NCBI GenBank assembly: GCA_963844035.1
Contig: CAWJMT010000012.1
Coordinates: 79,511-143,510, forward strand
Source of the DNA: an uncultured Gemmatimonadales bacterium
Lineage (GTDB): Bacteria; Gemmatimonadota; Gemmatimonadetes; Gemmatimonadales; GWC2-71-9
Direction of reading: 5' to 3'
DNA: 64,000 nt
Both the position numbers and the translations under genes were made by a program. Of this stretch, positions 51,375 through 64,000 are shown in pieces. The notes under the pieces are model-generated. The model did not search any database and was not told the DNA's origin. It saw only the letters and a list, made by a program, of their open reading frames with translations. How positions within the stretch are numbered: the first letter of the stretch is position 1; each line of letters starts with the position of its first letter.

Positions 51375-51535
51375 CCAGAGTGTTCGTGTACAAGGCGTCG
51401 AGTAGTGGCGCCGGGCTGGTGGCGGGTCTGTTGGGGATGGCATTGGCACAACGCTGGCTGGTGTGGGTCGGCGTGGCCCTGCTCGCCGTGGCATTCACAC
51501 TCAGGTTCGTTGAACGGAAGGCGCCCAACCCGTGA
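51371..51535 (+). CDS. Small membrane protein (54 aa)
   Basis: Not in the ORF track. MTRVFVYKASSSGAGLVAGLLGMALAQRWLVWVGVALLAVAFTLRFVERKAPNP*; GTGA overlaps at both ends. Confidence 0.7.
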   Translation: MTRVFVYKASSSGAGLVAGLLGMALAQRWLVWVGVALLAVAFTLRFVERKAPNP

Positions 51536-52972
51536 CCGTGACCCTGCCGCTCCTGCATCCCCTGCGCCAACCGGGAGCGCTGCTGCTCCTCTCGTGCTAC
51601 GAGCTGGGGCACCAACCCCTCGGGATCGCCTGGCCGCGAGCGTTCCTCGAGCGTGCGGGCTACGCCCCGGACGTGCTCGATCTGGCGGTAGACGCGTTCG
51701 ACGAGGCCAAAGTGCGGCGCGCGCAGCTTCGTGGGTATCGCCGTGCCGATGCATACGGCGCTGCGGCTCGGCGTGCGGGCCGCGGAGCGCATCCGCCGGA
51801 TCAACCCGGAGTGTTTCATCTGTTTCTACGGCCTCTACGCCCTGCTGAACGCGGACTACCTATTGGCGCACGTCGCAGACGCGGTCCTCGGCGGTGAGCT
51901 CGAGGGTCCGCTGGTCGCCCTCGTCGACCGGCTCACCGTGGAGGCTCGGCCCGCGTCGCCGCCGGCGGCGGCCTTGGGTCGGCTGTCGTATCCCGTTCCC
52001 GACCGGCGCGGGCTTCCTGAGCTGCAACGCTACGTCCACCTCGATCGGGGCGACGGGACAGTCACCCCGGCGGGATACGTCGAAGCGAGCCGCGGGTGCC
52101 TGCATCTTTGCCTGCATTGTCCCATTCCGCCCGTATACGGCGGGCGGTTCTTCGCGGTGCCGCGCGAGGTGGTGCTCGAGGATATCCGGCGCGTGGTGGC
52201 GCAGGGCGCGGGACACATCACCTTCGGCGACCCGGACTTCCTGAACGGCCCCGGACACGCTCTCAAACTGACCCGCGCGTTGCACGAGGAGTTTCCGGCC
52301 GTCACCTACGACTTTACGGCGAAGATCGAGCACATTCTCAGAGATAGGGAGCTATTCCCCGAGTTCGGTGCAACGGGGTGCGCTTTCGTGGTCTCCGCGG
52401 TCGAATCGCTCAGCGACGTGGTGCTCGCCAACCTGGACAAGGGGCATACTGCCGCGGATGTGCCGCGCGCCCTCGCCATCGTCCGCGGCGCCGGCATCGC
52501 GTTGCGACCGTCGTTCGTCGCGTTCACGCCGTGGACGACGCTTGAGGACTACGACCGGCTGCTGGATTTTGTCGAGCAGCACGACTGGATCTCCGAGGTC
52601 GATCCGGTACAGTACGCGATCCGACTGCTCATCCCACCCGGATCGCTGCTGGTGCCGCATCCAGCCATGCGCCCGCACCTTGGGGCGCTCGATGCTGCCA
52701 CGTTCAGCTACCAGTGGAGCCATCCCGACCCCAGAATGGATCGCCTTCACGTCGCGGTGCGCGGCGTGGTGGAAGCTGCGGCTCGCGACGGTGAAGCCGC
52801 AGCGGTCACGTTCGCAAGCGTCCGGCGTGCGGTGCGTGCGGCGCTGGGTGTGACCGCGCCGCGGACCAGCGTAACCGGGCAGCCCGCGCCGATCTCCTCA
52901 CGATCCCCGCGGCTCACCGAATCATGGTTCTGCTGCGCCGAGCCGACCGAGACTCAATTGGACCGGGTGTAG
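51532..52972 (+). CDS. CUAEP/CCAEP-tail radical SAM protein, Cys form; frameshift near 51730
   Basis: N-terminal SCYELGHQP, CLHLCLHC (CxxxCxxC), C-terminal RLTESWFCCAEPT. Confidence 0.85.
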
Positions 52973-56531: not shown

Positions 56532-57714
56532 ATGGGAATGTTTCCGGGCGGCCTCACCCGCGCCCGCGAGTTGCTCCGCACTCACTTCGGCCATCCCGTG
56601 TTGCGGGTGCACCAGATCCGAGTGCTCGGCGCGCTGTTCGCCGGGCGCAGCGTCCTCGCGGTGCTGCCGACCGGCGCTGGCAAGTCGCTCTGCTACCAGG
56701 TGCCCGCCCTGATGGCCGACGAGCTGACGCTCGTGATCTCGCCCCTCGTGGCGTTGATGCAGGATCAGGTAGCGGCGTTACAGCGCCGAGGGTTGCCAGC
56801 CGCGTACGTGAACAGCCTGCTCACCCCTGACGAGCGGCGTGCGGTGATTGCGGCAGCCTGTGCAGGAGAGGTGCGATTGCTCTACTGCGCGCCCGAACGA
56901 CTGGCGTCGCTTGCGCCGCGGCTCCGCGCGGCGGGTGTGCGGGTGGCGTTCCTGGCCGTGGATGAGGCGCACTGCATCGTCGAATGGGGGAATGAGTTCC
57001 GCCCCGTGTACCAGCAGCTCGGCAAGTACCGCTACCTGCTCGGCAACCCGGTCACTCTCGCTGTAACGGGCAGCGCCACACCCGATACGCGCGCCGAGAT
57101 CGTGCGGGTCCTGCGTGTGCCCGATGCGGATGTGATCACCACGTCATTCGATCGGCCCAACCTCGTATTTCTGGTGCAGCGCGTGCGCGACGACCGCGAG
57201 CGATTCGCAGAAGTACGCCGGCTCGTCCGGCACGCAGCGGGACACACCGTGCTCTACACGCCGACGCGGCGGCTCACCGAGCTGGTAGCGCGGGCCCTGC
57301 TGCGGGCCGGTATTGCCGCAGCGCCGTACCACGCAGGGCTCCTGCCCGGAGACCCGCCGCCAGCTGCTCGTCGATTTCCTCAACGACCGTGTGCCGGTGG
57401 TGGTCGCCACCAGCGCGTTCGGGATGGGGATCGACAAGCCCGACGTGCGGCGGGTCATCCACTGGGGCCCGCCGTCCACCCTCGAGGCCTATTACCAAGA
57501 GGCAGGGCGGGCAGGGCGCGATGGCGCGCGAGCTATGTGCACCATTCTGTGGCATTCCGCGGACTTCGCGTGGGGCGATCGTGACCCCGCCATGCGCCGC
57601 TACGTTGAGGCCCCATTTTGCCGCCGCCGCATGGTGCTCGAGTACTTCGGGGAAACGGGTGTGCGATGTGGCGGGTGCGACCGATGCGGAGTGGGGTATT
57701 CACTTGTGTGCTAG
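56532..57714 (+). CDS. Short RecQ-family DNA helicase, frameshift near 57345
   Basis: PTGAGKSLCYQ, VDEAHC..EWG..FRP, YHAG, VATSAFGMGIDKPDVR, YYQEAGRAGRDG, CRR..CGGCDRC; no winged-helix or HRDC domain. Confidence 0.9.
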
Positions 57715-57760
57715 TCGTCCTGTGAGCATGATTTCCCTCGTACCACATCACGGAGGGTTT

Positions 57761-58228
57761 ATGCCGCGGAGCATTACGGCCTTCCTCGCGTCACTCTTGC
57801 TGCTTCCCGCGTGCGGTGATCCAGATGCTCCGACGGTCACCAGCCTTTCGACAGACGCACCCCAGTACACACTCACCCCGACATCGTCTGTCTACCGGGG
57901 CAATGTCACCTTGTCCTTCACAAACGCAAACAGCTTCCCGGTAACCATCCCGGTTGCAGCGGGCTGTGGTCGGCTTCGCTGGAAAGGAAGCGGGCGACGG
58001 ACGGGGTGTGGGAATACGCCGCGTGGTTGGGACCTTTTACCAAGGGTCTCGAGGCGACTGTCGTCCCTGCGGGTGGGACGCGTAGCAAGGTCGTCGCATT
58101 GGCATTTCCTGAACTCGTCCTTTGCGGGCGAGTATCGCGTTGTGTTGGAGGTGTGGACGCCGCCTGATGAGTGGCCGCCGGAATACTTCACGTCGAACAC
58201 GTTCACGCTGTTGCCGAGTGCCCCGTAG
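57761..58228 (+). CDS. Hypothetical lipoprotein, tandem copy 1 (two compensating indels)
   Basis: Lipobox LPAC; homologous to 58253..58705, with the middle part in a shifted frame. Confidence 0.7.
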   Translation: MPRSITAFLASLLLLPACGDPDAPTVTSLSTDAPQYTLTPTSSVYRGNVTLSFTNANSFPVTIPVAAGCGRLRWKGSGRRTGCGNTPRGWDLLPRVSRRLSSLRVGRVARSSHWHFLNSSFAGEYRVVLEVWTPPDEWPPEYFTSNTFTLLPSAP

Positions 58229-58252
58229 GATCGGCGATCACGGGAGGGTTTC

Positions 58253-58705
58253 ATGCCGCGCTTCATGACAGCCTTCGTCGTAGCACTTCCGCTGCTTGTC
58301 GCGTGTAATCTCTTTTCTCCAAAGGACACCCACCTTTGGGCAGATGCTCCCCACTACACCCTTACCCCGACATCGTCTGGCTACGGGGGCCAAGCCACCT
58401 TGTCCTTCAGCAACGCGAACAGCTTCGCGGTAATTATCCCTGGCTGCGGGGCGTGGGGGGCTTGGCTGGAAAGGAGACGGGCCACCGACGGGGTGTGGGA
58501 GCACGCCGCGTGGTTGGGAAGCTATCTCAAGTGTGGTGGCGAGACGAACGTCGGCCCAGGTGCGACGGTCCACGAAGTCGTCCCATTGGCTCTCTCTGAC
58601 CCGTCCCTTGCCGGCGCATATCGCGTCACAATGGACGTGAGGATAAATGGGGGACTGGAACCGTTCACGTCCAACACGTTCACGCTGTTGACGAGAGCCC
58701 CGTAG
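58253..58705 (+). CDS. Hypothetical lipoprotein, tandem copy 2
   Basis: Lipobox LVAC; ends FTSNTFTLL like copy 1; GGAGG RBS. Confidence 0.75.
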   Translation: MPRFMTAFVVALPLLVACNLFSPKDTHLWADAPHYTLTPTSSGYGGQATLSFSNANSFAVIIPGCGAWGAWLERRRATDGVWEHAAWLGSYLKCGGETNVGPGATVHEVVPLALSDPSLAGAYRVTMDVRINGGLEPFTSNTFTLLTRAP

Positions 58706-58855
58706 GGCCGGCGCCCGGGGGTGCGTGATTGACGAGTAATGTTCTCGGGTAAGGGACTTACCTGAAGGGGCGAATTAAGCCAATATACCGGCTGGGAACG
58801 GCCCCCAATTGGTGCGGCCGGTCAGGGGCGCGCAATGAGCAACCCCAGCTAACTT

Positions 58856-58887
58856 AAGCGAGAGCCTGAGGTTCTCGCTTTGTTTTT
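58856..58887 (+). terminator. Terminator-like hairpin immediately upstream of sga
   Basis: AAGCGAGAGCC-tga-GGTTCTCGCTT-TGTTTTT. Confidence 0.65.
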
Positions 58888-58923
58888 CATTCCTTTCTTC
58901 TCGAGCTTCTGAGGACCAAGACA

Positions 58924-60178
58924 ATGGCAGGCCGTAACTTCCTCTTCGTCCCCGGTCCTACCAACGTTCCCGACCGGATCCTGCGGTCCATGCACCGCGC
59001 CATGGAGGATCACCGCTCCTCGGCGTTTCCCGAGCTCGCCAACACCCTGTTTCCGGAACTGAAACGGCTCTTCAGGACCACGACGGGGCAGCCGTTCATC
59101 TTCCCCGGCAGCGGCACGGGGGCCTGGGAAGTAGCGCTGGCGAACACCCTGTCGCCCGGCGACCGGGTGATCGCCCCGCGCTACGGCCAGTTCAGCCACC
59201 TGTGGATCGAGCTGGCGAAGCGGATCGGGATCCGGGTGGACATCCTGGACGTGGAATGGGGCGAGGGGGCGCCGCTCGAGCGCATCGCCGAGATCCTCCA
59301 GGGGGATGCGCAGCACGAGATCAAGGGCGTCATGATCGTGCACAACGAGACGGCCACCGGCGTCACGAGCGACGTGGCCGGCGTACGGCGGGCCCTCGAT
59401 GCGGCCAAGCATCCCGCGTTGCTCTACGTGGATGGCGTGAGCTCCATCGGAAGTATCGACTTCCGTATGGACGAGTGGGGCGTGGACATGGCCGTCACCG
59501 GGTCCCAGAAGGGTCTCATGCTCCCGGCCGGCCTCGGGATCCTGTGCGCCAGCCCGAAGGCGCTTGCTGCGCGCGAGCAGGCCAAGTGCGCGCGCGCGTT
59601 TTTCGACCTGGGCGACATGATCAAGGCCAACGCGACGGGCTACTTCCCCTACACGCCCGCCGTCCTGATGCTCTACGGCCTGCGGGAATCGCTGGCCATG
59701 ATCTTCGAAGAGGGCCTCGAGACCGTGTACGCCCGTCACCAGCGGCTCGCCGACGGCGTGCGTGCCGCGATCCGCGCCTGGGGCCTGAAGCTCTGCGCCA
59801 AGGCGCCGAAGTGGAACTCCAATACGGTCAGTGCGATCATGGTGCCGGAAGGGATCGACGGCGCCCAGGTGATCGACGTCGCGTACCGGCGCTACAACCT
59901 CGCGCTCGGCGCCGGGCTGGCGCGCATGGCCGGCAAGCTGTTCCGTATCGGCCATATGGGGGATTTGAACGAAGTCATGCTGCTCGGCGCGCTCGCCGGG
60001 ACGGAGATGGCCATGCGCGACGTCGGCGTCCAGATCACACCGGGGTCCGGAGTCGCTGCGGCTGAAGAATCGTGGCGCGCGACCGCCGCGCCGCTCGCCC
60101 CGCGCCCGTCAGCGGTGCAGCCCCCCGACGCCAAAGCCGGCGGCGGGCAAGCCCGCCATGGCGAAAGCGGCGACATGA
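58924..60178 (+). CDS. sgaA: Serine--glyoxylate aminotransferase (class V PLP); likely 1-nt indel near 60133
   Basis: GRNFLFVPGPTN, HNETATGV, VDGVSS, GSQKGL, YFPYTP, FRIGHMG; TGA at 60176-60178 overlaps the mcl ATG. Confidence 0.88.
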
Positions 60179-61143
60179 GCCTGACCCGGTACGAACCGGC
60201 CCGTCCCCGGTTGCAGCGCAGCGAGCTCGCGGTACCGGGCTCGCAGCCGGCGATGTTCAGGAAGGCGCTGGACAGCGACGCCGACTACGTCTTCCTCGAT
60301 CTCGAAGACGCCGTCGCGCCGGCCGACAAGGAACAGGCCCGGAAGAACGTCGTGGCGGCGCTGCTCGAACACGATTGGCGCGAGCGCGGCAAGACGATCA
60401 GCGTGCGCATCAACGGGATCGACACCCACTACATGTACCGCGACGTGGTGGATGTGGTGGAGCAGGCGGGCCACCGCCTCGACACTCTCCTCGTCCCGAA
60501 GGTGGGAACGCGAGATGACGTATACCTGGTGGATGCCCTGCTCACTCAGATCGAGACCGCACGCGGCATCCCCGTGCCGATCGGGATCGAGGTCTTGATC
60601 GAGACGGCGTTGGGGATGGCGAACGTTGAGGCGATCGCGCAGTCGAGCCGCCGGCTCGAGGCGATGCACTTCGGCGTGGCCGATTTCGCGGCGAGCGTGC
60701 ATGCGCGCACGGTGAGCATCGGCGGGCTGAACCCGGACTACCCCGGCGACCAGTGGCACGCGGCGATGTCGCGGATGGTGACCGCCAGTCGCGCGTATGG
60801 CTTGCGCGCCGTGGACGGGCCGTTCGGGGACTTCAAGGATCGCGAGGGGTTCCTGGCGGCGGCGCGCCGGGCGGCGGTGCTCGGGTACGAAGGGAAGTGG
60901 GCGATCCATCCCACACAGCTTGCGCTCGCGAACGACGTGTTTACACCCCCCGCGGCGGAAGTCGAGCGCGCGCGGCGCATTCTGCGTGCCTTGAGCGACG
61001 CGGCGCGCGAAGGACGCGGCGCGGCTCAGCTCGAGGGTCGCATGATAGACGCGGCGTCGGCCCGCATGGCGCAGAACATCGTGGAGATCGCCGCGGCGAT
61101 CGACGCGAAGCGATCACCCTCCCTGGCCGGCGCAGGGGCGTAA
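60175..61143 (+). CDS. mcl: Malyl-CoA/beta-methylmalyl-CoA lyase
   Basis: RLQRSELAVPGS, FLDLEDAVA, RINGIDTHYMYRDV, FGVADF, GKWAIHP. Confidence 0.85.
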   Translation: MSLTRYEPARPRLQRSELAVPGSQPAMFRKALDSDADYVFLDLEDAVAPADKEQARKNVVAALLEHDWRERGKTISVRINGIDTHYMYRDVVDVVEQAGHRLDTLLVPKVGTRDDVYLVDALLTQIETARGIPVPIGIEVLIETALGMANVEAIAQSSRRLEAMHFGVADFAASVHARTVSIGGLNPDYPGDQWHAAMSRMVTASRAYGLRAVDGPFGDFKDREGFLAAARRAAVLGYEGKWAIHPTQLALANDVFTPPAAEVERARRILRALSDAAREGRGAAQLEGRMIDAASARMAQNIVEIAAAIDAKRSPSLAGAGA

Positions 61144-61146
61144 CCC

Positions 61147-62322
61147 ATGGACATTCACGAGTACCAAGCCAAAGAACTGTTGGCGGGGTTCGGTGTGCCG
61201 GTGCCGCGGGGCGGTGTGGCCTACAGCGCCGAGCAGGCCGTGTACCGCGCCGTGGAGATCGGCGGCGACCGCTGGGTGGTGAAAGCCCAGATCCACGCCG
61301 GCGGCCGCGGCAAGGTCGGTGGCGTGCGGCTGTGCGCCAGCGATGCCGACGTGCGCCAGGCCGCAAAGGATTTGCTCGGCACCACCCTGGTGACCGCGCA
61401 GACCGGACCGGAAGGCCTCCCGGTGCACCGCTTGCTCGTCGAGCAGGCGCTGCCGGTCGAGCGCGAGGTGTATCTGGGGCTGGTCCTCGATCGCAAGCGT
61501 GAGCGGATCGCGGTCGTGGCGCACCCGCACGGCGGCATGGAGATCGAGGAGATCGCGCGCCGCGAACCCGACGCGATTCTGCGCGAGGTGGTGGAGCCGG
61601 CGGTCGGCATGCAGGCGTTCCAGGCGCGCGAGCTGGCGTACGGCCTGGGGATTCCCGCGGGCCTGGTCAGCCAGACCGTGACCACGATTCAAGGCGCGTA
61701 CCGTGCCTTCCGTGACCTCGACGCGACGATGGTGGAGGTCAATCCGCTCGTGGTGACCAAGGAGGGCCAGATTCTGGTGCTCGACGTCAAGATGAGCTTC
61801 GACGACAATGCCCTGTTCCGGCGTCCCAACGTGGCGGAGCTGCGCGACCATGCGCAGGAGGATCCCCGGGAGGCCGAAGCCGCCGAGCACGGCCTGAGCT
61901 ATGTGGGGCTGGAAGGCGACATCGGGTGCATCATCAACGGAGCCGGGCTGGCCATGGCGACGATGGACATGATCAAACACGCGGGTGGGGAGCCGGCCAA
62001 CTTCCTCGACATCGGCGGCGGAGCGTCGCCGGCGCGGGTGGCCGTGGCGTTCCGCCTGGTCCTGTCGGACAAGAACGTCAAAGCGATTCTCGTCAACGTG
62101 TTCGCGGGGATCAACCGGTGCGACTGGGTCGCGCAAGGCGTGGTCCAGGCCGTCAAGGAGGTCCAGATCCCCGTGCCGCTCGTGGTGCGGCTCGCGGGAA
62201 CGAACGTCGAAGAAGGCCAGCGCATCCTGCGCGACAGCGGCCTGCCGATCATCACTGCCGACTCGCTCGCCGAGGCGGCGGAGCGGGTGGTCGCGGCGCG
62301 CGACCGGGCGAGGGCCGCATGA
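61147..62322 (+). CDS. mtkA: Malate--CoA ligase (malate thiokinase) beta subunit
   Basis: [36 protein letters not shown]; SucC-like, in a sga/mcl context. Confidence 0.85.
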
Positions 62323-63233
62323 GCATTCTGCTCGACGAGAAGACGCGCGTCATCGTCCAGGGCTTCACGGGTGACAAGGGGACGTTCCACGCGAAGGAAA
62401 TGATCGCGTACGGGACGAATGTCGTGGGCGGGGTCACGCCGGGAAAGGGTGGCGCCACGCATCTGGGGAAGCCGGTTTATGACACGGTGAAGGAAGCCGT
62501 CGCCGCCACCGGTGCGACCGCGAGCCTGATCCTGGTGCCGGCGCCGTTCTGCGCCGACGCGATCATGGAAGCGGCTGACGCAGGGATCCGCCTGATCGTC
62601 ACGATCACCGATGGCGTGCCGGCGCAGGACATGATGACCGTGAAGCGCTACCTGTGGCGCTACCCCAAGGAGCGCCGCACGCGGATGGTCGGTCCCAACG
62701 GGGCGGGTGTCATCAGCGCCGGCAAGGCGATGATGGGGATCATGCCCGGGCACATCTACACGCGCGGTCCCGTGGGTGTCGTGGCACGCTCGGGGACGTT
62801 GGGGTACGAGGCGGCGGCGCAGATGCGCCTGCTCGGCATCGGGATCACCACGAGCGTCGGCATCGGGGGCGACCCGATCAACGGCACCTCGTTCCTGGAC
62901 ATGCTGGCGTTGTTCGAGCAGGACCCCGAGACCGAAGCGGTCATGATGATCGGCGAGATCGGCGGGCCGCAGGAAGCCGACGCCGCGTTGTTCGTGAAGG
63001 AGAACATGACGAAGCCGGTCGTCGGATACGTCGCCGGCCTCACGGCTCCCAAAGGGCGCCGGATGGGACACGCCGGAGCGATCATCTCGGCATTCGGCGA
63101 CACGGCCGCTGAGAAGGCGCAGATCATGCGCTCGGCCGGTCTGGTCGTCGCGCCAAGTCCGGCGGAGCTCGGGACCACCATGGCGGCGGTGTTGGCGCGC
63201 AAGCCTTCGCGGCGGGTGATGGTCCCGCAGTGA
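62319..63233 (+). CDS. mtkB: Malate--CoA ligase alpha subunit
   Basis: [37 protein letters not shown] phospho-His. Confidence 0.85.
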
Positions 63234-64000
63234 GCGGACGGCCGCGGGTCGTCGTGACCCGGCAGCTGCCGGCGGCAGTGGAAGAACAGCTGGCGCGCGA
63301 GTTCGACGCGCAGCTGAACCGCGACGACCACCCGTTCAGCGCCGCCGAGCTGCAAGAGGCGTTGCGCACCGCCGACGCCGTCCTCCCCACCGTCACGGAC
63401 AAGCTCACGGCCGACGTCCTGTCCGCGGAGCCGCTGCGGGCCAAAATCCTCGCGAACTACGGCGTCGGGTTCAACCACATCGATCTCGGGGCGGCGAAAG
63501 CGCGCCGCCTGGTGGTGACCAACACCCCCGACGTGCTCACCGACGACACGGCGGACGACGCGATCATGCTGATGCTGATGGTGGCGCGCCGCGCCGGGGA
63601 AGGAGAGCGGCACGTGCGCTCCCGCGCCTGGACCGGCTGGCGGCCGACCCATATGGTCGGGACGAAGGTCTCCGGGAAGACGTTCGGGATGGTGGGCATG
63701 GGCCGCATCGCGCGCGCGGCGGCGCGCCGCGCCCGGCTGGGCTTCGGGATGCGGGTGGTGTTCCATGATCCGTACCCGCCGCCCCCCGAGCTGATGGCGG
63801 AGCTCGCGCTCGAAGCGCGCCCCAGCGTCGAGGACGTGATTCGCGAAGCGGACTTCGTGTCGTTGCATTGTCCCGCCACGCCCGAGACGCGCCATCTCAT
63901 GGACGCGCGGCGGCTCGCCCTCATGAAGCCCACGGCGTTCCTGATCAACACGGCCCGTGGCGACGTGGTGGACGAGGCGGCGTTGATTGCGGCCCTCAAG
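63230..64000 (+). CDS. D-glycerate dehydrogenase / hydroxypyruvate-glyoxylate reductase family, runs off the window end
   Basis: Not in the ORF track. GTG start; [44 protein letters not shown]. Confidence 0.88.

What the first reader, a model, noticed from the sequence alone, without database searches (positions are those of the whole stretch)
58924..64000. Serine-cycle gene cluster (sga-mcl-mtkA-mtkB-hpr) in a probable Gemmatimonadota genome
Seen: five tightly coupled genes whose products match serine-glyoxylate aminotransferase, malyl-CoA lyase, both malate thiokinase subunits and a hydroxypyruvate/glycerate dehydrogenase; the operon continues past the window. Known: these are the signature enzymes of serine-cycle formaldehyde assimilation, best studied in alphaproteobacterial methylotrophs. 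Inference: this organism may assimilate C1 compounds using a horizontally acquired module. Methylotrophy in this phylum has been proposed from metagenomes but is poorly characterised.
Basis: partly seen in the sequence, partly recalled or inferred. Interest (0 to 1): 0.7.

Follow-up and report, generated by a model that had tools for sequence, protein, structure and literature searches.

The report
Serine-cycle operon in a lapsed methylotroph
This is a real gene cluster predicted to build biomass from one-carbon compounds, shared by many Gemmatimonadales bacteria whose methanol use was proposed in 2016, but this genome lacks the methanol-oxidising genes its relatives carry and likely cannot grow on methanol.

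Summary
The cluster is real: sga, mcl, mtkA, mtkB and a glyoxylate/hydroxypyruvate-reductase-like gene, cut by the contig end; ppc follows in 12 of 13 relatives. MtkA passes the malate–CoA ligase cut-off; sucCD lies elsewhere. Three corrections. (1) sga and mcl form one 739-aa ORF here, most likely an assembly indel: all 13 relatives keep them separate, and 13 of 32 tested genes are frameshifted. (2) It is no recent transfer: MtkA occurs in 74 of 401 phylum genomes, 70 of them with the H4MPT enzyme Mch and 65 with a close XoxF, and the Gemmatimonadota copies form one clade. (3) This genome keeps H4MPT genes, GlyA, GlxK and isocitrate lyase, but xoxF, pqqBC/E and ftfL are missing at intact syntenic sites, so methanol growth is unlikely; two-carbon use is the main rival. 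Butterfield 2016 already reported XoxF, H4MPT and the malate-type serine pathway in Gemmatimonadetes. Possibly new: the breadth, the modular loss, and a divergent isocitrate-lyase-like protein in 47 of the 74 MtkA genomes.

The parts
58924..60178 (+). sga, serine-glyoxylate aminotransferase-like gene (about 417 aa); its likely stop TGA 60176-60178 overlaps the mcl start but is out of frame in this assembly
   Evidence: relatives' Sga are 410-422 aa and 10 of 13 end in an ATGA/GTGA overlap; the +1 frame gives a tail ending at this TGA
60120..60178 (+). sga-mcl junction with an apparent one-base frame slip (near the C6 run 60121-60126 or the A3 run 60133-60135) that fuses the two genes; likely assembly error
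60175..61143 (+). mcl, malyl-CoA lyase (322 aa); R78, E143, D170 and D292 match the positions of R76, E141, D168 and D299 of the Rhodobacter enzyme
   Evidence: alignment; residue roles from PMC3832036 passages
61147..62322 (+). mtkA, malate--CoA ligase beta subunit (391 aa)
   Evidence: NF010647 696 bits, cut-off 604; tree
62319..63233 (+). mtkB, malate--CoA ligase alpha subunit (304 aa)
   Evidence: SucD/MtkB family; 56% to the separate SucD on C3; tree
63230..64000 (+). D-2-hydroxyacid dehydrogenase, GyaR/GhrB-like, likely the hydroxypyruvate reductase; cut by the contig end (324 aa in relatives)
   Evidence: function inferred from gene context

Best explanation
The operon encodes the predicted core of an isocitrate-lyase-type serine cycle inherited from a likely methylotrophic Gemmatimonadales ancestor, and this genome keeps it although it lacks the methanol-oxidising front end. 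In typical relatives the inferred route is: XoxF oxidises methanol; Fae, Mtd, Mch and Fhc take formaldehyde to formate; FtfL and FolD (or the MtdA-like enzyme) make methylene-THF; GlyA makes serine; Sga, the reductase, a glycerate kinase, enolase, Ppc, Mdh, MtkAB and Mcl yield acetyl-CoA plus glyoxylate; an isocitrate lyase supplies the second glyoxylate. Shown: gene identities, order, co-occurrence and the three syntenic absences. Inferred: all enzyme activities, flux direction and the growth phenotype. In this genome the H4MPT genes would only remove formaldehyde, and with no FtfL there is no evident enzymatic route from formate into the cycle.
For: MtkA over cut-off and far from the genome's own SucC. 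Operon sga-mcl-mtkA-mtkB-reductase-ppc conserved; ppc follows in 12 of 13 relatives, the 13th contig ends early; a MOFRL glycerate kinase is adjacent in six other genera. Phylum sample of 401: MtkA 74, Mch 85, both 70, MtkA only 4, Mch only 15, neither 312; 65 of the 74 have an XoxF at least 73% identical to that of G004, whose best solved relative is XoxF 6OC5. Ccr over cut-off in 0 of 41. G000 has AceA (718 bits, cut-off 562), GlyA (33), FolD (34), GlxK (32), Mdh (90), enolase by motif (80) and the H4MPT block on C9 (26, 90). Mcl+MtkA+MtkB tree: 19 Gemmatimonadota rows form one clade, support 99. Losses: the xoxF site is closed (3 nt between the RFAP-synthase gene and mnmE), no ftfL between tatD and ridA, orphan pqqD.
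Against: No activity was measured. G000 is 83.7% complete and composite: C3/C35 duplicate 51 kb at 85% identity and C2 begins with about 8 kb of archaeal-looking DNA, so contigs C12, C9, C3 and C37 may not come from one population and missing genes could lie elsewhere. The operon's ppc is not assembled. Relatives' Ppc scores below the NCBIfam cut-off (751 vs 815) and the reductase is not an HprA orthologue. GlxK could not be assigned as 2- or 3-kinase. G003 (100% complete) has the operon without Mch, FtfL or isocitrate lyase, and G006 without Mch or FtfL, so the operon can persist without the C1 modules. G002, which has XoxF, Mch and FtfL, showed no isocitrate lyase and no formate dehydrogenase. 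Kin are not independent, so the co-occurrence may reflect few gain events.
Confidence: 0.7

Rival explanations
1. In this genome (and in G003, G006) the operon now works mainly in two-carbon assimilation. Mcl and MtkAB would run in reverse (glyoxylate + acetyl-CoA to malyl-CoA to malate + ATP) in place of malate synthase, and Sga, the reductase, GlxK, glycine cleavage and GlyA would handle glyoxylate from glycolate, as in plant photorespiration. This is compatible with a methylotrophic origin.
For: G000 has AceA but no malate synthase; 10 of 14 operon-bearing genomes in the 41-genome set have no malate synthase match, whereas all 8 operon-free genomes with AceA have one. G000 has GlcD/GlcE-like, GcvT (43) and GcvP by motif (80). 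The operon is kept in 7 of 7 genus members while C1 modules are patchy.
Against: Absence of malate synthase is also expected in an isocitrate-lyase-type serine cycle (own knowledge). In Methylobacterium extorquens Mtk, Ppc and Sga activities are higher on methanol than on acetate (PMC2948502 Table 1 passage). Only 4 of 74 MtkA genomes lack Mch. An acetyl-CoA synthetase motif search found nothing (weak test).
Confidence: 0.3
2. G000 is still a methanol or formaldehyde user, and xoxF, pqq and ftfL lie in unassembled or unbinned DNA.
For: 83.7% completeness; genes that follow the operon in relatives (ppc, prolyl oligopeptidase, RNase E/G) are missing from the bin; all 6 other genus members have a PQQ dehydrogenase over cut-off or nearly so; the H4MPT block is retained.
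Against: Three separate loci on three long contigs are closed without the genes, and pqqD is left behind with pqqBC and pqqE gone on either side; no PQQ dehydrogenase candidate at all.
Confidence: 0.2
3. The Sga-Mcl fusion is a real bifunctional enzyme that channels glyoxylate from Mcl to Sga.
For: One 739-aa ORF; 11 other Sga+Mcl fused proteins stand at the top of the homologue list.
Against: 0 of 13 relatives are fused; the closest database Sga proteins (87-90% identical, one cluster with 38 members) are 418 aa and unfused; the 11 fusions are singletons, each joined at a different place and mostly lacking part of one partner; two environmental contigs across the junction differ by -4 and +8 bases, both restoring separate genes; 13 of 32 genes in this assembly are frameshifted.
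Confidence: 0.08
4. MtkAB is a second succinyl-CoA synthetase, or the cluster is a recent horizontal import into this genome.
For: MtkB scores as SucD because NCBIfam gave no separate alpha model; nearest non-Gemmatimonadota relatives are proteobacterial.
Against: MtkA passes the malate--CoA ligase cut-off; sucCD is separate; GC content matches the genome; the genus forms one clade (99) inside a phylum-wide clade; same flanking genes in the genus.
Confidence: 0.03

Closest known systems
Gemmatimonadetes methylotrophy of Butterfield et al. 2016 (PMC5103831; passages and figure legends read)
   Same: XoxF next to the H4MPT genes, PQQ synthesis, THF-to-serine route, 'glycerate kinase', and the 'canonical malate-intermediated serine' pathway; matches the layout in G001, G002, G004, G005 and G009.
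   Different: G000 lacks xoxF, pqqBC/E and ftfL. The passages read give no operon structure, phylum-wide count, tree or divergent isocitrate lyase; Figs S3 and S4 were not opened.
Serine cycle of Methylobacterium (Methylorubrum) extorquens AM1 (PMC2948502; passages read)
   Same: Sga, MtkAB, Mcl, Ppc, GlyA, Eno, Mdh and a glycerate kinase; Mcl close to 5UGR; Mtd of the H4MPT block is MtdA-like (1LU9, E 6e-86 for the G002 protein).
   Different: No ethylmalonyl-CoA pathway (Ccr 0 of 41 over cut-off); isocitrate lyase instead; reductase is GyaR/GhrB-like rather than HprA; GlxK instead of a MOFRL kinase in this genus; no fch match.
sga-mcl-mtkAB(-reductase-ppc) clusters of Mesorhizobium, Aminobacter, Hyphomicrobiaceae, Roseovarius, Pseudonocardia and uncultured Gammaproteobacteria (loci L066-L145)
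   Same: Same gene order in many loci; MtkA 62-74% identical.
   Different: Separate clades in the tree; the sister group to the Gemmatimonadota clade is Burkholderiales/Beijerinckiaceae-like with a different order (mtkAB-ppc-mcl, mtdA-fch).
'Ca. Methylotropicum kingii' (seen only through passages of bioRxiv 10.64898/2026.02.02.703227)
   Same: A Gemmatimonadota genome proposed to use C1 compounds through the serine cycle.
   Different: That preprint reports sga and hprA missing and pmoCAB likely misbinned. Here sga is present and no AMO/PmoA match was found in 5 genomes (without a positive control).

Membership tests
Serine cycle | Malate thiokinase MtkAB distinct from SucCD | tested here: met
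   696 bits vs cut-off 604; separate sucCD on C3; tree
Serine cycle | Malyl-CoA lyase with lyase-type catalytic residues | tested here: met
   Asp, not the thioesterase Glu, at the last catalytic position
Serine cycle | Serine-glyoxylate aminotransferase | tested here: met
   best solved relative 6PK1; BhcA model below cut-off; amino-donor preference not testable
Serine cycle | Hydroxypyruvate reductase | tested here: inconclusive
   GyaR/GhrB-like, below cut-offs; 36% to HprA-type; context only
Serine cycle | Glycerate kinase making 2-phosphoglycerate | tested here: inconclusive
   GlxK family over cut-off, 2- and 3-kinase models both below; MOFRL type in 0 of 7 genus genomes
Serine cycle | GlyA, enolase, malate dehydrogenase | tested here: met
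   (enolase by recalled motif only)
Serine cycle | PEP carboxylase | tested here: inconclusive
   operon copy beyond the contig end; a different, frameshifted ppc on C32, 38%; present in 12 of 13 relatives
Serine cycle | Glyoxylate regeneration (isocitrate lyase or ethylmalonyl-CoA pathway) | tested here: met
   AceA 718 bits vs 562; Ccr not found
Methanol-growing methylotroph (G000 itself) | Methanol dehydrogenase and PQQ synthesis | tested here: not met
Methanol-growing methylotroph (G000 itself) | Formaldehyde oxidation (H4MPT) | tested here: met
   fae intact; mtd, fhcADC and mch present but several frameshifted
Methanol-growing methylotroph (G000 itself) | Formate entry (FtfL) and formate dehydrogenase | tested here: not met
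   FtfL; three FDH models; PurU also below cut-off (71)
Methanol-growing methylotroph (G000 itself) | Growth on a C1 substrate | not testable with these tools
   needs culture or isotope probing
Beta-hydroxyaspartate cycle | bhcA over cut-off and clustered with bhcBCD | tested here: not met
   BhcA 593 vs 650 and neighbours are mcl-mtkAB; bhcBCD were not searched genome-wide
Methanotroph | pmoA | tested here: inconclusive
   0 of 5 genomes, but no control genome rang either

The most novel reading that the evidence does not exclude
About a sixth of sampled Gemmatimonadota genomes carry one ancient, vertically inherited methylotrophy package (XoxF, H4MPT, serine-cycle operon) that regenerates glyoxylate with an undescribed isocitrate lyase subfamily (about 378 aa, RTCGH instead of KKCGH, 52 of 401 genomes, 47 with MtkA, never seen together with AceA). 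One genus is dismantling the package piece by piece while keeping the operon as an ATP-yielding replacement for malate synthase, G000 being such a lapsed methylotroph.
Probability: 0.35. Interest if true: 0.6.

Novelty: new member of a known kind. Interest (0 to 1): 0.36.

Why it matters
Gemmatimonadetes XoxF was reported as the most abundant protein in a grassland soil proteome (PMC5103831), so whether these cells assimilate methanol carbon or only burn it bears on soil carbon budgets. The counts here suggest the assimilation operon travels with XoxF and H4MPT in a defined, large part of the order, and that the operon alone is not proof of methylotrophy: G000, G003 and G006 have it without the full route. 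Two phylum-wide surveys do not mention the trait in their main text (PMC10581226: 0 hits for methanol, serine, methylotroph; PMC11596202 likewise). The divergent isocitrate-lyase-like protein is a concrete enzyme to assay. The finding at the given coordinates is itself a further example of a pathway already reported for the phylum.

Tried and rejected
Looked for the contig that continues the operon: none among the 39 contigs. The one RNA run (X20, share 0.05) gave only short pieces: no expression claim is made. Small shares were not used to name a habitat. Tested whether H4MPT genes are decaying: they are frameshifted, but so are dnaA, yidC and mnmE beside them, so decay and error cannot be told apart. 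The MtkA tree with SucC as outgroup finished only as a quick tree and SucC is a very long branch, so its root is not used; no donor is claimed and test_one_clade was not run. No matches in G000 for fch, a second glycerate kinase type or MttB, and only weak paralogue hits for MgsA and dimethylglycine dehydrogenase. Promoter scan: nothing; one terminator-like hairpin at chance level. Literature: searches found no paper on this operon's distribution or on the divergent lyase; the library lacks most subscription papers, one paper on glyoxylate use in AM1 was not held, and no supplements were read, so Butterfield Figs S3/S4 may hold more. Earlier scan notes: nothing. No structure or complex prediction was run.
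Full report
Observation. The region 58924-64000 holds, on the + strand, an aminotransferase, a CitE-family lyase, two CoA-ligase subunits and a truncated 2-hydroxyacid dehydrogenase. The window is the last 64 kb of contig C12 of a 3.47-Mb, 39-contig genome, 83.7% complete; no other contig continues the operon. MtkA exceeds the curated malate--CoA ligase cut-off (696 vs 604 bits) and the genome has separate sucC and sucD on C3 (45% and 56%). Mcl is closest to solved malyl-CoA lyases and keeps residues at the positions given for the Rhodobacter enzyme in PMC3832036 (passages). The aminotransferase is closest to a solved serine--glyoxylate aminotransferase. The dehydrogenase is GyaR/GhrB-like and 36% identical to an HprA-type protein; its role is inferred from context.

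The apparent fusion. sga and mcl are one 739-aa ORF. In 13 of 13 relatives they are separate, 10 with an ATGA/GTGA overlap; the same overlap exists here one frame off. The assembly is indel-rich: 13 of 32 orthologues tested change frame, about 0.5 per kb, including dnaA, yidC, secD and mnmE. Related environmental contigs lack one base at 57343 in the split recQ gene, and two that span the sga-mcl junction differ by -4 and +8 bases, both unfusing the genes; these are other strains. Eleven fused Sga+Mcl proteins top the database search, but each is a singleton with its own joint, while the nearest Sga proteins are 418 aa. I treat the fusion as an assembly error (about 90%).

Taxonomy and history. 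The closest named loci (85-86% MtkA identity, same flanking genes) are titled Gemmatimonadales, and database hits to Sga carry that label. In a FastTree of Mcl+MtkA+MtkB (78 rows: G000 plus the 77 of 93 loci with all three genes), the 19 Gemmatimonadota rows form one clade (99), the genus rows a sub-clade (99), next to Burkholderiales- and Beijerinckiaceae-like rows. GC content equals the genome's. This fits one old acquisition followed by inheritance; the donor was not tested.

Distribution. Among 41 genomes, 14 have a close Mcl (76-100%): G000, 6 of 6 other genus members, 13 of 24 in the family, 0 of 16 in two other families; two weak hits (36-38%) were set aside. The operon continues with ppc in 12 of 13. 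In 401 genomes drawn across the phylum, MtkA matched in 74 (70 over cut-off; 65 of 166 in this family), Mch in 85; 70 have both, 4 only MtkA, 15 only Mch, 312 neither. An XoxF at least 73% identical to the G004 enzyme (best solved relative XoxF 6OC5) occurs in 74 genomes, 65 of them with MtkA; 64 have all three (only three candidates per genome were scored, so misses are possible). Kin are not independent, so no statistic is given.

This genome. Present: GlyA, FolD (34), GlxK (32), Mdh and AceA (90), GcvT (43), enolase and GcvP by recalled motif (80), and the H4MPT block at C9:72.5-91.4 kb, whose Mtd is MtdA-like. Not found: any PQQ dehydrogenase, PqqC (42), FtfL (15), formate dehydrogenase under three models (41, 70, 72), PurU (71), Ccr (16), malate synthase (28), PmoA (83, no positive control). 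Three absences are at closed syntenic sites: where G001, G002, G004, G005 and G009 have xoxF after the H4MPT block, G000's last H4MPT gene stops 3 nt from mnmE; where G002, G004 and G005 have tatD-ftfL-ridA, G000 has tatD-ridA; where G002 and G004 have pqqBCDE, G000 has pqqD alone. This points to real loss. Against it: the bin mixes populations (C3/C35 duplicate at 85%; archaeal-looking start of C2) and lacks the DNA after the operon.

Mechanism. Most likely the operon is the core of an isocitrate-lyase-type serine cycle (enzyme list as in PMC2948502, passages) that in typical relatives assimilates methanol carbon via XoxF, H4MPT, formate and FtfL. G000 likely cannot oxidise methanol or feed formate into the cycle. 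The main rival for its present role is two-carbon assimilation: 10 of 14 operon genomes have no malate synthase match, against 0 of 8 operon-free genomes with AceA, and G003 and G006 keep the operon without Mch or FtfL. All activities are inferred.

A side result. Many MtkA genomes have no AceA but a 378-aa isocitrate-lyase-family protein, 31% identical to AceA, below all NCBIfam cut-offs, with RTCGH for KKCGH. It aligns to solved isocitrate lyases far better than to methylisocitrate lyases and keeps the Trp, Phe and Thr that I recall as isocitrate-specific (recalled; one search found no paper). It occurs in 52 of 401 genomes, 47 with MtkA, none also matching as AceA-like; 13 MtkA genomes have AceA-like hits and 14 neither with this query, which misses some known AceA copies. 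JGI already names many members 'isocitrate lyase'. G000 does not have it.

What is known. Butterfield et al. 2016 (PMC5103831; passages and legends) report XoxF beside H4MPT genes, PQQ synthesis and the canonical malate-type serine pathway in Gemmatimonadetes. PMC6784897, PMC10875860 and PMC11264602, all read as passages, report xoxF or methanol dehydrogenase in the group. bioRxiv 10.64898/2026.02.02.703227 (passages) finds sga and hprA missing in 'Ca. M. kingii'. PMC13661901 and PMC13300288, passages, added background only. Term searches in PMC10581226 and PMC11596202 found no mention of methanol or serine. No supplements were read.

Verdict. A real, well-conserved serine-cycle operon; a new member of a kind already reported for the phylum; the fusion is likely an artefact; this genome is probably a lapsed methylotroph. 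Interest 0.36.

Noticed in passing
L165:5499-6632 (minus strand; G018), also L164, L166, L167, L168: Divergent isocitrate-lyase-like protein (about 378 aa, RTCGH motif, 31% to AceA) in 52 of 401 phylum genomes, 47 of them with MtkA; candidate glyoxylate-regenerating enzyme.
   Followed up: partly
G000:C9:98094-102969 (L180): Glycine/sarcosine/betaine reductase-like cluster (GrdG/E-, GrdB/F-, GrdC-, thioredoxin- and GrdA-like genes) next to dnaN; unexpected in this lineage by my recall.
   Followed up: partly
window 56532-57714: recQ is split by a frameshift; related environmental contigs lack one base at 57343, so likely an assembly error.
   Followed up: yes
window 51532-52972: CUAEP/CCAEP-tail radical SAM gene (598 bits, over cut-off), split near its start by a frameshift; ends in a CCAEP motif.
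   Followed up: partly
window 57740-58705: Two tandem, similar small lipoprotein-like ORFs just upstream of sga with no family match; related environmental contigs skip 58213-58724, i.e. carry one copy.
   Followed up: partly
window 58856-58890: Hairpin followed by a T-run about 35 nt before the sga start; one found versus 0.4 expected in shuffles, so not significant.
   Followed up: partly
G000:C2:1-8000; C3 versus C35: The bin is composite: C2 starts with about 8 kb of heavily frameshifted, archaeal-looking genes (SMC, glyA, folD, cof-like; judged by eye) joined to bacterial uvrB, and C3/C35 duplicate 51 kb at 85% identity.
   Followed up: partly
G000:C37:183101-183385: Orphan pqqD with pqqBC and pqqE missing relative to G002 and G004.
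   Followed up: yes
G003 (L023, L064) and G006 (L017, L063, L174): Both keep the operon but lack Mch and FtfL; G003 has a divergent XoxF-like gene (59%) at the usual site, G006 a formate dehydrogenase with an in-frame TGA.
   Followed up: partly
L086, L109, L111, L091, L132, L142, L145: MtkA-type genes, often with sga and mcl, in records titled Verrucomicrobiia, Ca. Cybelea, Deltaproteobacteria, Acidimicrobiales and Pseudonocardiaceae.
   Followed up: no
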